From assembly GCF_056712565.1 (NCBI RefSeq), contig NZ_CM160072.1: a stretch of 64,000 bases of DNA; one strand, written 5' to 3'. The notes under the pieces are model-generated. The model saw nothing but the letters and a program-made list of their open reading frames with translations. It was not told the origin of the DNA and ran no database searches. Position numbers and translations under genes: made by a program. This document shows positions 15,786-18,995 of this stretch, in pieces; the stretch's first letter is position 1; the number at the start of each line of letters is the position of its first letter.

Positions 15786-16763
15786 TTATTTGTGTTTGTA
15801 AATAATGTGAAGTTTGTAACCCTGTACCCCGTCGCCGTTGGTCGGGATGGAAAGTGCCTCTTTTCCATCGCGCGCAGGGCCGTTAAGGTTGGTTCTGGCT
15901 TCGTCGTTGGTCGCAGGGATGACCAAATTGTTATTATCGAAGCTTGAGTTAACGATGCCACCCGAAGTGCCAAGCTGTTGGCTGCTGCCAGAAAGTACCC
16001 AACGGAAGTCATAATTGGCGGTGACGTCAGCATCGGTACCCGCATCAAACTTGCCATTTTTGTTCTCATCCGAGTACAGTTTGGCCACGTAGGTTTTGCC
16101 AAGTTCGATTGGTGTGCTACCGTTGATAAGGTTGATACTGGTACCATCAACAAAGATGGCGACTTTCAGGTTCTGGTTAACCACCGGCCCCGGTGCAACG
16201 TTATCGCTGTCGCTTCCGCCGCCGCTGGCAGTAGAAACGTCATAAAGATGCAGCGCAGTCCCGACGTTTGGCGTACCGGTCTGCGTGGTTGGCGTAATTT
16301 CAATACCGATATAACGACCACGGTCGGCATCGGTAAGAGTGTAACTGGTCACCTTCGTTACCAGCTCTTTTGGATCCCCCCCCTGCGCATCCTTGTAGCT
16401 CATCCAGCGGATAGTATCGATAGTTTTCGCGTTATCGCCCAATCCCCCAAGATCCACGTCGCCTTCGGTATCACCAATTTCCCAACTTACGGTTAATTTA
16501 TCACCCGAGTAAAGACGCTTGTCCGTTTCACTGCCTTGCGGGCGAGCGCCTTTTAGATCAGAAGTCAACGTTACACGGTCGGCATCTGTCGTAGCACTTC
16601 CCCCTTCCGAATAGAGCCACGGAATGGTCCCCTGGAAAATATTGGTTTCACCGCTGTCGACCCAGGCGCTGTCTTCAGCCAGCGCCACAGGTGCCACACA
16701 ATAACCTGCCAGTGCCAGCGCTAATGCGATCCGGGTCAGACCGCGTCTTTTATCCTGCTTCAT
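15786..16763 (-). CDS. sinI: SinI-like secreted protein, paralogous to the C-terminal region of the SinH-like protein
   Basis: ATG with strong RBS AAGGAGAG. Signal peptide MKQDKRRGLTRIALALALAGYCVAPVALA|ED. C-terminal ~90 aa (...YDFRWVLSGSS...NNLVIPATNDEA...GDGVQGYKLHIIYKHK) aligns with the C-terminus of the sinH-like product. Confidence 0.65.
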   Translation of the reverse strand: MKQDKRRGLTRIALALALAGYCVAPVALAEDSAWVDSGETNIFQGTIPWLYSEGGSATTDADRVTLTSDLKGARPQGSETDKRLYSGDKLTVSWEIGDTEGDVDLGGLGDNAKTIDTIRWMSYKDAQGGDPKELVTKVTSYTLTDADRGRYIGIEITPTTQTGTPNVGTALHLYDVSTASGGGSDSDNVAPGPVVNQNLKVAIFVDGTSINLINGSTPIELGKTYVAKLYSDENKNGKFDAGTDADVTANYDFRWVLSGSSQQLGTSGGIVNSSFDNNNLVIPATNDEARTNLNGPARDGKEALSIPTNGDGVQGYKLHIIYKHK

Positions 16764-16817
16764 TGATGCTCTCCTTAATGAACCTTCAGCGACTGGCCGA
16801 CTGGCCTTACGCCAATC

Positions 16818-18995
16818 TTATTTTTTGGTATACAGCACGCGTAAACCGTATCCCTGCAAGCCATCTCCCGCTTGTGCGCCATAGGTTTGCGCCGCTTCAC
16901 GGTTAGTGGCCGGAATCACAATGTCCTCATTGGAAGTGTTCGCCTGTGCACCCACTTCACCATTGATGCTCTTGCCGGTAAATTCCCACTTGTAGTCGTA
17001 CTGCACCATCTCTTCGTCAGTCAGTTTTTCGACCTGCTGGAAGACACCGTCTTTATTGTTGTCGCGCCACAAAACAAATCGATAAGTGTTGTTGAGCGGC
17101 AACGGTTCTTTATCTTTACCTATCAGGTTGCTGGGTTTAGCCGCCCCCACACGATAGATAAAAGCATTTAGCCCACCAATTTCTGCCCCGAGGAAAGTGA
17201 CATCCACATAGTTACTGTCATCGTAGGGCGCGGCTTTTGCTTTCCAGCGATAGGTGCCGGGTAAGGTACTGGAGAGGGTGACAGTGCCCTTTTCTTTATC
17301 TTGTTTAGCGATAAAAACGCAGGGGTTGTCGGTCGAGCAAGGCTTGTTGGTTAACGTCACTCGTTTGTCCTGCGCGTCGTAAAGCTGCGGCGTGAGGTTA
17401 TCTTCCGGCAGCGCATCGCCATTGCGGTCGGTGTTATCGCCAAAGCTGTCGGTTACATCGAGATCCATCACCACACCATCAACGCCATCTGCCTGAGCGC
17501 TGGCTTCGTGGCTGTGGTTGTTCTCTTCTGGCACGTTCGCGATGTTATTAACAATCAACTCTATTTTACGGTCCTGCTGAACGGTGATTTCCACCACGCC
17601 AGAGTTCTGCCGATTGCCCTTTTCATCTTCCAGCGCCAGACGTACTCGCCAGGTATTGAGTTTTTCTTGTTCGGCTTGATCGGAACTGTACTGCCAGGCG
17701 GGCAGCACCAGGTTCCAGTGGTTATTGTTACCCTCTGTCAGGGTATTCTCTTTGATAACCGGCATCACCAGCGTGCGGGCAGCATTGTTTTTCGCCTGCC
17801 AGGAGGCAGCAACGATTTTGTAGTGATGGTTAATGAGCGCGTTAATGGTCCATTTACATTTTTCCAGCCCGATAGCTTCTTCAGGCGTATCTTTAATCAC
17901 GCACTCGGGATGTTCATTCGTGACGTCGGCTTTCAGCCACAAAGTGACATAGAGGGGATCTTTCTCTTTGTATTCCAGAACAATAAAGTTGTTACGTTCA
18001 ACAAAGTCATGACGGCTACCCATGAGCGAGTGAGCCGCGCTCACTTTGTCAGGATCAAGCTGGTCTTTGAGCGGGACGCCAAACTGGTAGTTCAGCGTTG
18101 CGTTAACAGAAAGATCGGTATTATCGCCAGTGCCAGCTTTGAAATCTGTACCGACAACAATGAGCGGAACGGGCTGGTATTTCACACCCAGCGTGACAGC
18201 GAAGGGATCTTTCTCCAGACTATCGGTACCAAAAAGCGCGACTTCATTCCCATAATATTGTTCGAAGACAATTTTTCCGCCAAGCTGCGGGTAAGCGGGT
18301 AGCCAGGCTTCAGCGCGAATATCCCAGCCGCGCGCAGGGCGTTCTTCATAAAAGTCGAAATCTTCAGAGTCTTTCCAGTCAGAAAGTGGGTGATAATAGT
18401 TGCCTGAGAATTTTAAATAATCCGTCCAGGCTTCGGCGCCTAAACCTAAACGGCGATGTCCACGGGTAAAGTCATAATCATAAAATATATTTCCACCCAA
18501 TAGATATTTATCAAAATTATACCTTACCCCAAGGCCAATATTCCCGATCGTACGATCTTCTTTTCGTTGCGCAGAAAATTGGCTGAAATAAACAGTGGTT
18601 TGATTATCGTACCAGGGAACAAAATAATCGATGGAACTGCCATCCAGATCGCCGCCCTGACCAATGGAGAGGTTCGAACGGACCTTACCGTAGGGAGAGA
18701 GTGTGTCTTCAATATAAGATTGTGCGGTTGAGGTGATTTGACTTTGCAGATAGCTTCTGGCCTGAGATTTCAGCGCCTCAGGGGTCAAGTTTTCAAACCC
18801 TTGCGTGGCGGAGTTGATGACGTAATCGGCTCCGCGCTCTTTCAGCGATTTACCCTTGTTGGTTTGTTCATCCTGTTGTGCTGCCTGGCTACCTAAATCA
18901 GGTAACGATTCGTTTTGCTTAACATTTATCTCTGGCGCCGCGAAAGCAGCACCAGAGATAAATGTTAGAATAATACAGCGTTTCCATCGCAGCAT
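16818..18995 (-). CDS. sinH: Intimin/invasin-family inverse autotransporter adhesin (SinH-like)
   Basis: ATG at 18993-18995 preceded by AGGGA; the track ORF starts 10 codons earlier at TTG. Signal peptide MLRWKRCIILTFISGAAFA|AP. Residues ~150-400 (IGNIGLGVRYNFDKYLLGGNIFYDYDF...GLGAEAW...WDIRAEAWLPAY...) resemble the inverse-autotransporter beta-barrel, followed by extracellular passenger domains. Confidence 0.7.
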   Translation of the reverse strand: MLRWKRCIILTFISGAAFAAPEINVKQNESLPDLGSQAAQQDEQTNKGKSLKERGADYVINSATQGFENLTPEALKSQARSYLQSQITSTAQSYIEDTLSPYGKVRSNLSIGQGGDLDGSSIDYFVPWYDNQTTVYFSQFSAQRKEDRTIGNIGLGVRYNFDKYLLGGNIFYDYDFTRGHRRLGLGAEAWTDYLKFSGNYYHPLSDWKDSEDFDFYEERPARGWDIRAEAWLPAYPQLGGKIVFEQYYGNEVALFGTDSLEKDPFAVTLGVKYQPVPLIVVGTDFKAGTGDNTDLSVNATLNYQFGVPLKDQLDPDKVSAAHSLMGSRHDFVERNNFIVLEYKEKDPLYVTLWLKADVTNEHPECVIKDTPEEAIGLEKCKWTINALINHHYKIVAASWQAKNNAARTLVMPVIKENTLTEGNNNHWNLVLPAWQYSSDQAEQEKLNTWRVRLALEDEKGNRQNSGVVEITVQQDRKIELIVNNIANVPEENNHSHEASAQADGVDGVVMDLDVTDSFGDNTDRNGDALPEDNLTPQLYDAQDKRVTLTNKPCSTDNPCVFIAKQDKEKGTVTLSSTLPGTYRWKAKAAPYDDSNYVDVTFLGAEIGGLNAFIYRVGAAKPSNLIGKDKEPLPLNNTYRFVLWRDNNKDGVFQQVEKLTDEEMVQYDYKWEFTGKSINGEVGAQANTSNEDIVIPATNREAAQTYGAQAGDGLQGYGLRVLYTKK

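What the first reader, a model, noticed from the sequence alone, without database searches (positions are those of the whole stretch)
15786..17100. SinI-like protein and the SinH-like autotransporter share a paralogous C-terminal domain of about 90 aa
The C-termini align: ...YDFRWVLSGSSQQLGTSGGIVNSSFDNNNLVIPATNDEARTNLNGPARDGKEALSIPTNGDGVQGYKLHIIYKHK versus ...YDYKWEFTGKSINGEVGAQANTSNEDIVIPATNREAAQTYGAQAGDGLQGYGLRVLYTKK. In intimin/invasin the extreme C-terminus is the receptor-binding tip, so the sinI-like protein may be a free soluble copy of the adhesin tip (decoy, competitor or co-receptor), possibly arisen by internal duplication.
Basis: seen in the sequence. Interest (0 to 1): 0.55.

Follow-up and report, generated by a model that had tools for sequence, protein, structure and literature searches.

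The report
SinI copies SinH's outermost adhesin domain
The small exported protein SinI really does carry a copy of the outermost domain of its neighbour, the E. coli surface adhesin SinH, but this was already published and fits a known adhesin-plus-partner system; the domain is an Ig-like beta-sandwich, not the lectin-like tip of intimin or invasin.

Summary
SinI residues 211-325 align with SinH 633-735 at 36% identity (E=8e-13). The Smith-Waterman score is 144 against 34±5 for shuffles (z≈20).

The window is an E. coli ST95/APEC O1-type chromosome carrying the sinH-sinI-ratA ("ila"/CS54-like) island between xseA and yfgJ/der.

The similarity is already in the literature: Heinz 2016 credits Kingsley 2003, and Goh 2019 also notes it. 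NCBI names SinI a "SinI family autotransporter-associated protein".

The best reading is that SinI is a ZirS/ZirU-like, Sec-exported partner that associates with SinH. A decoy role is untested.

Two results go beyond what I found in the literature:
- SinI and the giant adhesin RatA share a ~25-aa motif at the mature N-terminus, in 18 of 18 genomes.
- In a distant lineage the autotransporter's terminal domain groups with its own partner's domain (97% bootstrap), so the match arose or was renewed more than once.

The parts
16818..19025 (-). sinH, an intimin-like inverse autotransporter. The ORF from the first TTG is 735 aa; the RefSeq start at the ATG at 18995 gives 725 aa. It has an IAT beta-barrel followed by three Ig-like passenger domains.
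   Evidence: Pfam IAT_beta covers residues 73-346, E=2.3e-103. NCBIfam inverse_SinH scores 1472 bits against a cutoff of 999. The barrel matches the PDB invasin and intimin barrels 4e1t and 4e1s. RefSeq annotation. The three Ig-like domains are from Xing 2023.
16821..17207 (-). SinH distal domain, about residues 607-735 of the 735-aa ORF (597-725 in RefSeq numbering). This is the published 'SinH-3'/'RBD' domain and the copy shared with SinI.
15786..16763 (-). sinI, 325 aa, a SinI family autotransporter-associated protein: signal peptide, N-terminal motif, Ig-like domain 1, Gly/Asp linker, C-terminal SinH-like domain.
   Evidence: NCBIfam partner_SinI scores 335.6 bits against a cutoff of 165. 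RefSeq protein WP_000806617.1. AF2 model. Family alignments A1 and A4.
15789..16178 (-). SinI C-terminal domain (about residues 196-325), the paralogue of SinH domain 3. It carries a DxNxNGxxD loop, an invariant Trp255, a 'PxTNxEA' helix and a 'DGVQGY.L' final strand.
   Evidence: AF2 pLDDT is 82-96 over this region. The order of secondary-structure elements matches the SinH model. Foldseek of the SinH-domain model against AFDB SinI models gives TMq 0.71-0.75 and probability 1.0.
16236..16577 (-). SinI domain 1 (about residues 63-176), an Ig-like beta-sandwich with 'GDTEGDxD' and 'ITPTTxTGxP' motifs, related to the ZirU family.
   Evidence: AF2 predicts a beta-rich domain. NCBIfam ZirU_fam matches residues 73-210 at E=9.6e-7, below the family cutoff. 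Invariant D98, D102, G163 and P165 in the wide family alignment.
16614..16676 (-). SinI mature N-terminal motif (about residues 30-50, 'EDSAWVDSGETNIFQGTIPWL'), just after the inferred signal-peptide cleavage site ALA|ED. RatA-like proteins share this motif.
   Evidence: G45 is nearly invariant and P48 invariant across SinI-like proteins down to ~23% identity. Its best match in RatA lies at the RatA mature N-terminus in 18 of 18 genomes. It is low-confidence or disordered in the monomer AF2 model.
7615..15665 (-). ratA-like giant adhesin gene (2683 aa when intact). In this window it is split into two ORFs (10287..15665 and 7615..10170) by a 1-bp deletion near 10296.
   Evidence: NCBIfam RatA-like PRK15316 scores 5946 bits on the intact ST95-32 allele. 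Frameshift located. The gene lies downstream of sinI in all 17 loci with flank.
15528..15587 (-). RatA mature N-terminal motif (residues ~27-46, '[20 protein letters not shown]'), homologous to the SinI N-terminal motif.
   Evidence: BLASTP E=0.043 for this pair, in an alignment that also spans the two signal peptides. Anchored alignments in 18 genomes. Shuffle z-scores of 1.0-13.1, with the best hit always at RatA residues 24-47.

Best explanation
sinH-sinI-ratA is a three-gene surface-adhesin module (the 'ila'/CS54-type island). SinH is an outer-membrane inverse autotransporter that displays three Ig-like domains.

SinI is its co-transcribed, Sec-exported partner. It has no barrel. It consists of an unstructured N-terminal motif, an Ig-like domain related to ZirU, and a C-terminal Ig-like beta-sandwich that is a paralogue of SinH's outermost domain.

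Most likely SinI works like ZirS and ZirU of the Salmonella ZirTSU system. After Sec export it reaches the cell surface or the medium in a SinH-dependent way. It then associates with the distal SinH domain through a like-with-like Ig-domain contact, extending or modulating the adhesin rather than acting alone.

Shown here: the homology, the fold class, the domain's restriction to autotransporter/partner pairs, the strict gene order, and the shared N-terminal motif of SinI and RatA. Inferred: SinH-dependent export, physical binding between SinI and SinH, and any effect on adhesion.
For: - Homology: E=8e-13, z=20.7; reciprocal NCBIfam hits.
- Fold: both AF2 models are confident and have the same order of strands and helices. 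Foldseek of the SinH-domain model against AFDB SinI models gives TMq 0.71-0.75, probability 1.0.
- Distribution: a profile of the domain finds only 54 representatives among 1.84 billion proteins. These are essentially ~300-400-aa SinI-like proteins and ~730-750-aa SinH-like autotransporters, with the domain always C-terminal.
- Synteny: sinH, sinI and a ratA-like gene lie in that order on one strand in all 17 loci with flank, across Escherichia, Citrobacter, Pseudocitrobacter, Superficieibacter and Leminorella.
- Distant loci repeat the pattern. In L002 the autotransporter C-terminus matches its partner at E=2e-4 and is followed by two partners. L025 and L023 show the same arrangement.
- In the L025 lineage the autotransporter's terminal domain groups with its own partner's domain at 97% bootstrap. 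This suggests selection for the two to stay alike.
- SinI domain 1 hits ZirU_fam at E=9.6e-7.
- No terminator-like site lies between the three genes on the coding strand.
- Literature: sinH and sinI are co-transcribed. ZirS is secreted only when ZirT is present. ZirS and ZirU resemble ZirT's Ig domains and are its substrates. Goh 2019 propose the same analogy for IatB (SinH).
Against: - No experiment shows SinI secretion or SinI-SinH binding.
- Goh 2019 found that IatB (SinH) mediates biofilm formation without the downstream protein.
- Within Enterobacteriaceae the SinH and SinI C-domains show no same-genome excess of similarity (mean Smith-Waterman score 173.8 versus 175.6). There is therefore no detectable pair-specific co-evolution at shallow depth.
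- SinI evolves much faster than SinH (40-68% versus 62-87% identity). That would also fit an exposed, immune-selected free protein.
- At least one SinI-like gene (P0151, locus L024) has no adjacent autotransporter gene.
- SinI falls below the ZirU family cutoff (29 versus 100 bits), and neither ZirS nor ZirT appeared in any search.
Confidence: 0.55

Rival explanations
1. Soluble decoy or competitor. SinI is released and its SinH-like domain binds the same host ligand as the SinH tip. It would either block or tune SinH-mediated adhesion, or soak up antibodies raised against the SinH tip.
For: The domain is the distal 'RBD' of SinH, and it is immunogenic and protective as the SinH-3 antigen. SinI has a signal peptide and no anchor. 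SinI diverges faster than SinH, as expected for an exposed, immune-selected protein. The residues conserved in both copies (W255, the PxTNxEA helix, DGVQGY) could form a common binding site.
Against: No ligand of SinH domain 3 is known. Identity is only ~36%, so a shared ligand or shared epitopes are not implied. The conserved residues look like fold-core residues. In the only studied analogue (Zir), the partners bind the transporter itself. The N-terminal motif shared with RatA is not explained.
Confidence: 0.15
2. Two-partner-secretion model of Heinz et al. 2016. The SinH Ig-like domains act in the periplasm like POTRA domains. They recognise SinI (and RatA) by Ig-Ig contact and then thread them through the SinH barrel. 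The shared domain is therefore a recognition handle for export, not a surface structure.
For: The model was proposed explicitly for ZirT, SinH and Rat-like proteins. ZirS secretion depends strictly on ZirT. The conserved N-terminal motif common to SinI, RatA and every SinI-like partner looks like a shared export or targeting signal.
Against: RatA and the 360-aa L025 partner lack the SinH-like domain, so that domain cannot be the general handle. The paper held reports that IatB (SinH) is surface-located. A 2683-aa folded adhesin passing a 12-stranded barrel already occupied by its own linker is mechanistically difficult, a problem Heinz 2016 itself raises.
Confidence: 0.15
3. Evolutionary leftover. 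The domain was duplicated or shuffled between neighbouring genes, and the two copies now work independently with no physical or functional coupling.
For: There is no same-genome co-variation within Enterobacteriaceae. IatB works without the downstream gene in biofilm assays. An orphan SinI-like gene exists.
Against: The pairing is kept in every locus examined and across very distant Enterobacterales. The domain occurs essentially nowhere else. In one lineage the autotransporter and partner copies cluster together at 97% bootstrap, which a passive relic would not predict.
Confidence: 0.1

Closest known systems
ZirT/ZirS/ZirU antivirulence system of Salmonella (Gal-Mor 2008, PMC2270342; Prehna 2012, recalled from memory and via Heinz 2016)
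   Same: An inverse-autotransporter gene is followed in the same operon by small Sec-exported, barrel-less Ig-fold proteins that resemble the transporter's own Ig domains. SinI domain 1 gives a sub-threshold hit to the ZirU family (E=9.6e-7). Heinz 2016 and Goh 2019 already draw the analogy.
   Different: SinI is not a member of the ZirU or ZirS families (29 bits against a cutoff of 100). ZirS, ZirT and ZirU did not appear in any sequence or fold search with the shared domain. The sin locus adds a giant RatA adhesin carrying the same N-terminal motif. SinH-dependent secretion or binding of SinI has not been shown.
Intimin (EHEC/EPEC) and invasin (Yersinia), the classical inverse autotransporters
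   Same: The N-terminal beta-barrel is homologous: PDB 4e1t at E=8.9e-71 and 4e1s at 1.8e-64. The passenger is a rod of Ig-like domains, and the last domain is the presumed binding end.
   Different: The SinH terminal domain is an Ig-like beta-sandwich, not the C-type-lectin-like D3/D5 tip. Published TM-scores to the counterpart domains are 0.41-0.45. Intimin and invasin have no partner protein carrying a copy of their tip.
Classical two-partner secretion (FhaC/FHA, type Vb)
   Same: A separate outer-membrane transporter and an exported substrate are encoded together. The substrates carry a conserved N-proximal element, the role I suspect for the SinI/RatA N-terminal motif.
   Different: The transporter here is an inverse autotransporter, not an Omp85/POTRA protein. 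The N-terminal element is about 25 aa, not a ~250-aa TPS domain. The substrate also copies a domain of the transporter.
SinH-3 vaccine antigen (Xing et al. 2023, PMC9937491)
   Same: It is exactly the domain at issue, SinH residues 602-724, called there Ig-like domain 3 or the receptor-binding domain.
   Different: That paper never mentions SinI (0 occurrences). The existence of a 36%-identical paralogue encoded by the next gene is not considered in the vaccine work.

Membership tests
SinI family autotransporter-associated protein (NCBIfam NF040711) | Whole-protein score above the curated cutoff of the family model | tested here: met
   335.6 bits against a cutoff of 165; residues 7-322 cover model positions 2-299 of 299.
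SinI family autotransporter-associated protein (NCBIfam NF040711) | Encoded immediately downstream of a SinH-type inverse autotransporter, on the same strand | tested here: met
   There is a 54-nt gap between the sinH stop and the sinI start in the window. The order is the same in all 17 loci with flank. RefSeq annotation agrees.
SinI family autotransporter-associated protein (NCBIfam NF040711) | Exported protein without a beta-barrel or membrane anchor | tested here: met
   No IAT_beta or other barrel domain is found. The N-terminus has a typical n/h/AXA signal peptide with no lipobox; the cleavage site is inferred from the sequence.
ZirS/ZirU-type secreted partner of an inverse autotransporter | Ig-superfamily fold and similarity to the transporter's own passenger Ig domain | tested here: met
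ZirS/ZirU-type secreted partner of an inverse autotransporter | Sequence membership in the ZirU (or ZirS) family | tested here: not met
   ZirU_fam scores 29.1 bits against a cutoff of 100, and the match covers domain 1 only. This indicates a related domain, not family membership.
ZirS/ZirU-type secreted partner of an inverse autotransporter | Secretion that depends strictly on the cognate inverse autotransporter | not testable with these tools
   This needs fractionation of tagged SinI in wild type and in a sinH deletion mutant. It has been shown only for ZirS/ZirT.
ZirS/ZirU-type secreted partner of an inverse autotransporter | Direct binding to the extracellular domain of the transporter | not testable with these tools
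A pull-down or AlphaFold-Multimer run is needed.
Intimin/invasin C-type-lectin-like receptor-binding tip (intimin D3, invasin D5) | C-type-lectin-like fold or an Intimin_C-type sequence signature | tested here: not met
Intimin/invasin C-type-lectin-like receptor-binding tip (intimin D3, invasin D5) | Position at the extreme C-terminus (distal end) of the passenger | tested here: met
   The domain ends at the last residue of SinH. It is Ig-like domain 3 of 3 in the published full-length model.

The most novel reading that the evidence does not exclude
SinI is an adaptor in a non-covalent chain. The ~25-aa N-terminal motif is carried by SinI, by RatA and by every SinI-like partner, but not by SinH. 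It could dock, perhaps by strand addition, onto the SinH-3-type beta-sandwich, which is carried at the C-terminus of SinH and of SinI but not of RatA.

SinH (membrane anchor), SinI (adaptor) and RatA (giant adhesin head) would then assemble into one surface fibre. This would explain why SinI looks like RatA at one end and like SinH at the other. It would also explain why loci with several partners exist. It would be a new assembly principle for type Ve systems, reminiscent of donor-strand exchange in pili.
Probability: 0.1. Interest if true: 0.8.

Novelty: already known. Interest (0 to 1): 0.3.

Why it matters
SinH is prevalent in extraintestinal pathogenic E. coli: 1749 of 5426 complete genomes match this region and 940 carry most of it. 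It also contributes to urinary-tract infection. Its distal domain, which is exactly the domain copied in SinI, is a published protective vaccine antigen.

Nobody has tested what SinI does, and the vaccine paper does not mention it. If SinI binds or caps that domain, competes for its ligand, or shares epitopes with it, that bears directly on how the adhesin works and on how anti-SinH-3 immunity acts.

More generally, the locus offers a tractable case for the unresolved question of how inverse autotransporters handle separately encoded partner proteins. The N-terminal motif shared by SinI and RatA gives a concrete element to mutate.

Tried and rejected
- Pfam gave no significant family for the shared domain. 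Both proteins gave only weak DUF5057 hits (E~0.04) on the 'LWxDxNxNGxxD' loop, which I treated as motif-level noise.
- A sequence search of the PDB with SinI found nothing at E<=10.
- Foldseek of the whole SinI model against the PDB gave only weak, poorly superposed tandem Ig/FN3 hits. I therefore modelled the domain alone.
- In the 1.84-billion-protein profile search, the multi-repeat hits in giant proteins (P0136, P0142, P0158, P0162, P0168, P0170) cover only part of the profile. P0142 is a leucine-rich-repeat protein. P0162 has repeats with a 'YADLNKNGxYD' loop and no Pfam family. I rejected both as relatives of the domain; the other four were not examined.
- P0126 and P0140 look like mistranslated copies and were ignored.
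- The search for related loci with the wide alignment A4 failed for lack of a conserved stretch. I used A1 instead, which reaches only Enterobacteriaceae-type loci.
- I tested whether RatA also has a SinI-like domain 1. hhalign puts the N-motif and the 'D.EGD' motif in register, but with E=0.03 and probability 1.7%, so this is inconclusive.
- The RatA C-terminal ORF has no SinI/SinH-like domain.
- I tested for gene conversion or pair-specific co-evolution between the SinH and SinI C-domains within Enterobacteriaceae and found none.
- Prehna 2012 (JBC) could not be retrieved. What I say about it rests on memory and on Heinz 2016.
- I could not obtain ZirS, ZirT or ZirU sequences, so I do not know whether they carry the N-terminal motif.
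Full report
**What is there.** The window is an E. coli chromosome of the ST95/APEC O1 type. Region 15600-19200 is 100% identical to APEC O1, S88 and other ST95 genomes. Between xseA (6170-7546) and yfgJ/der lies a three-gene minus-strand island:
- sinH, 16818..19025;
- sinI, 15786..16763;
- a ratA-like giant adhesin gene, 7615..15665.

RefSeq annotates them as 'intimin-like inverse autotransporter SinH', 'SinI family autotransporter-associated protein' and 'adhesion domain-containing protein'. The gaps are 54 nt (sinH-sinI) and 120 nt (sinI-ratA). No terminator-like site lies in either gap on the coding strand. A review held in the library states that sinH and sinI are co-transcribed within the 'ila' locus. 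[quoted passage not shown]

**Check of the observation.** The two quoted C-termini are exactly the ends of the SinI and SinH ORFs.
- BLASTP aligns SinI 211-325 with SinH 633-735 at 36% identity, E=8e-13.
- The Smith-Waterman score is 144, against 34.3±5.3 for 2000 shuffles (z=20.7, Gumbel p~2e-12).
- The NCBIfam models cross-hit: the SinH C-terminus matches the SinI model at 7.5e-21, and the SinI C-terminus matches the SinH model at 2.2e-11.

The homologous module is about 125-130 aa, longer than the stated 90, because it includes an upstream strand.

**What the shared domain is.** Pfam has no family for it, and no PDB sequence matches SinI.

I modelled SinI from a 39-sequence family alignment. 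Residues 1-62 are low-confidence. Domain 1 (about 63-176) and the C-domain (about 196-325, pLDDT 82-96) are beta-rich.

I modelled SinH 607-735 separately from a 25-sequence alignment (pLDDT 87.6). Both models show the same order of elements:
- a strand ('KVAIFVD' / 'NAFIYRV');
- a strand ending in a DxNxNGxxD loop ('TYVAKLYSDENKNGKFD' / 'TYRFVLWRDNNKDGVF');
- a strand with an invariant Trp ('YDFRWVL' / 'YDYKWEF');
- a short strand ('LVIP' / 'IVIP');
- a helix ('TNDEARTN' / 'TNREAAQT');
- a final strand ('GVQGYKLHIIY' / 'GLQGYGLRVLY').

The DxNxNGxxD loop resembles calcium-binding loops; that is my inference and was not tested.

Foldseek against AFDB50 finds the fold only in two groups: SinH-like inverse autotransporters and SinI-like proteins. 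They come from E. coli, Salmonella, Hafnia, Yersinia, Budvicia, Hamiltonella, Regiella, Fukatsuia and Zophobihabitans. SinI models match at TMq 0.71-0.75, probability 1.0.

A sequence profile of the domain finds only 54 representatives among 1.84 billion proteins. These are essentially ~300-400-aa partners and ~730-750-aa autotransporters, with the domain always C-terminal.

Xing et al. 2023 independently modelled SinH as a barrel plus three Ig-like domains. [quoted passage not shown] They report TM-scores of only 0.41-0.45 to the intimin and invasin counterpart domains. They never mention SinI.

**Is it new?** No.
- Heinz et al. [quoted passage not shown] They add that this 'was previously documented' by Kingsley et al. 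2003.
- They also liken the locus to ZirT/ZirS/ZirU and propose SinI and Rat-like proteins as SinH substrates.
- Goh et al. 2019 repeat the analogy for E. coli IatB (SinH).
- NCBI has a curated 'partner_SinI' family, which SinI passes at 335.6 bits against a cutoff of 165.

**Context and evolution.** A scan of one genome per species returned 19 loci. All 17 with enough flank show sinH, sinI and a ratA-like gene in that order on one strand. They come from Escherichia, Citrobacter, Pseudocitrobacter, Superficieibacter and Leminorella.

Relative to the window, SinH is 62-87% identical, SinI only 40-68% and RatA 40-70%.

Within this set, the SinH C-domain is no more similar to the SinI C-domain of its own genome than to those of other genomes (173.8 versus 175.6). 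The duplication is therefore old and not homogenised at this depth.

Distant loci repeat the architecture:
- L002 has an autotransporter followed by two paralogous partners. The autotransporter C-terminus matches a partner C-terminus at E=2e-4.
- L023 has an upstream gene ending in a similar domain, followed by a partner.
- L025 has an autotransporter ending in the domain, followed by partner P0133 and then a 360-aa protein. The N-terminal half of that protein is homologous to the partner's (E=4e-19). Its C-terminal half is a Big_2 domain plus what I read by eye as a DUF1566-like end.

In a neighbour-joining tree of C-domains, the Enterobacteriaceae SinH copies form one clade (98%). The L025/P0145 autotransporter copies instead group with their own partner's copy (97%). 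This suggests the match between transporter tip and partner was created or renewed more than once, which argues for a functional reason to keep them alike. The tree rests on ~120 aligned residues and one such lineage, so it needs confirmation.

One SinI-like gene (P0151, L024) has no adjacent autotransporter gene.

**A second, apparently unreported, relationship.** Immediately after their signal peptides, SinI and RatA share a ~25-aa motif. In the window it reads SinI 'EDSAWVDSGETNIFQGTIPW' against RatA '[20 protein letters not shown]'. In most other genomes it reads SinI 'NLKSGQWQIVTDSTGTIQGTVPW' against RatA 'ALKSGTWQEVNTSTDAINGTVPL'.
- In 18 of 18 genomes, a 26-aa SinI segment aligned against the whole 250-3000-aa RatA-like ORF found its best match at the RatA mature N-terminus (residues 24-47). 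The z-scores range from 1.0 to 13.1.
- Two motif types ('…EF[QN]GT.P' and 'LK.G.WQ…I[QN]GT.P') occur together in both proteins. Shared ancestry could explain this.
- The core 'G-x-x-P' is kept in every SinI-like protein down to ~23% identity; P48 is invariant and G45 is at least 90% conserved. It is also kept in the L025 360-aa partner.
- The segment is low-confidence in the monomer model.
- Heinz 2016 describe the Rat N-terminus as 'highly divergent' and mention no such motif.
- RatA has no SinH-like C-domain.

SinI is thus a mosaic: RatA-like at the N-terminal end and SinH-like at the C-terminal end.

**Mechanism.** The best-supported reading (confidence ~0.55) is that SinI is a ZirS/ZirU-like partner. 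It would be Sec-exported, would reach the surface in a SinH-dependent way, and would associate with the distal SinH domain through an Ig-Ig contact.

Shown here are the homology, the fold, the restricted distribution, the synteny and the shared motif. Export dependence and binding are inferred from the Zir precedent (my memory of Prehna 2012).

Rivals:
- a soluble decoy or competitor (0.15);
- the periplasmic recognition-handle version of the Heinz two-partner model (0.15), weakened because other partners lack the domain;
- an unconnected evolutionary relic (0.1), weakened by the universal pairing and the 97% same-lineage grouping.

The most novel reading not excluded (~0.1) is a chain. In it the N-terminal motif docks on a SinH-3-type domain, giving SinH, then SinI, then RatA.

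**Verdict.** The feature is real, statistically solid and biologically sensible, but already described and annotated, and the lectin-tip analogy fails. Interest as stated is low to moderate. The practical link to the SinH-3 vaccine antigen and the N-terminal motif shared by SinI and RatA are the parts worth following up.

Noticed in passing
window 16614-16676 (SinI) and 15528-15587 (RatA); loci L005-L021: SinI and the RatA-like giant adhesin share a ~25-aa motif at the mature N-terminus ('…W…T..[IF].GT.P'). Two motif types occur together in both proteins. The G-x-x-P core is kept in all SinI-like partners. I did not find this in the literature held, and Heinz 2016 call the Rat N-terminus highly divergent.
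   Followed up: yes
window ~10296 (within ratA, 7615..15665, minus strand): There is a 1-bp deletion relative to strain ST95-32 ('aatcggccct' here versus 'aatcggtccct'). It splits the 2683-aa ratA-like gene into ORFs of 1792 and 851 aa. This is either a pseudogene in this strain or a sequencing error. APEC O1 and ST95-32 have the intact 8052-nt gene.
   Followed up: yes
window 17778-17804 (sinH, minus strand): There is a 27-bp in-frame repeat polymorphism in the SinH passenger. 'SWQAKNNAA' is present once here and in ST95-32 but three times in APEC O1 (743 versus 725 aa). Several other ST95 genomes show the same 54-bp length difference.
   Followed up: partly
locus L025 (metagenome contig), genes 2-2041, 2101-2991 and 3082-4164: A distant locus holds an inverse autotransporter followed by two partners. 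Both partners share the SinI-type N-terminal half (motif, domain 1 and a 'DNIPDGPV' linker). Their C-terminal halves differ: one has the SinH-like domain, the other a Big_2 domain plus a DUF1566-like end (read by eye), like a miniature RatA. Partner proteins therefore look modular.
   Followed up: partly
NJ tree of C-domains; loci L025 and P0145: In one distant lineage the autotransporter's terminal domain clusters with its own partner's domain (97% bootstrap) rather than with other autotransporters' terminal domains. This suggests repeated duplication or exchange between transporter and partner.
   Followed up: partly
locus L024 (CP050253.1, 2.6-Mb genome), gene 10001-11074: A SinI-like gene (P0151, 357 aa) sits alone between slyX and an EamA transporter gene, next to the ribosomal protein cluster, with no inverse autotransporter nearby.
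   Followed up: no
AFDB50 hits: Several SinI-like proteins in UniProt (Fukatsuia, Hafnia paralvei, Regiella, Yersinia massiliensis, Zophobihabitans) are named 'Ornithine carbamoyltransferase'. This looks like a propagated annotation error.
   Followed up: no
locus L004 (JAIJJM010000381.1): A 3.1-kb contig filed under a Collinsella sp. metagenome-assembled genome carries sinI and the start of ratA, whose products are 96-98% identical to those of the window. This is almost certainly a mis-binned E. coli contig.
   Followed up: no
window 18500-19500: G+C falls to 0.41-0.44 over the 5' end of sinH, its upstream region and yfgJ, against ~0.50-0.55 in the rest of the island and its flanks. This is the der-proximal edge of the island.
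   Followed up: no
SinI signal peptide, window ~16698-16706: The signal-peptide h-region motif 'AGYC' is invariant in the Enterobacteriaceae SinI set (A19, G20 and C22 invariant) but is not a lipobox. The Cys is lost in distant family members. The reason for this conservation is unknown.
   Followed up: no
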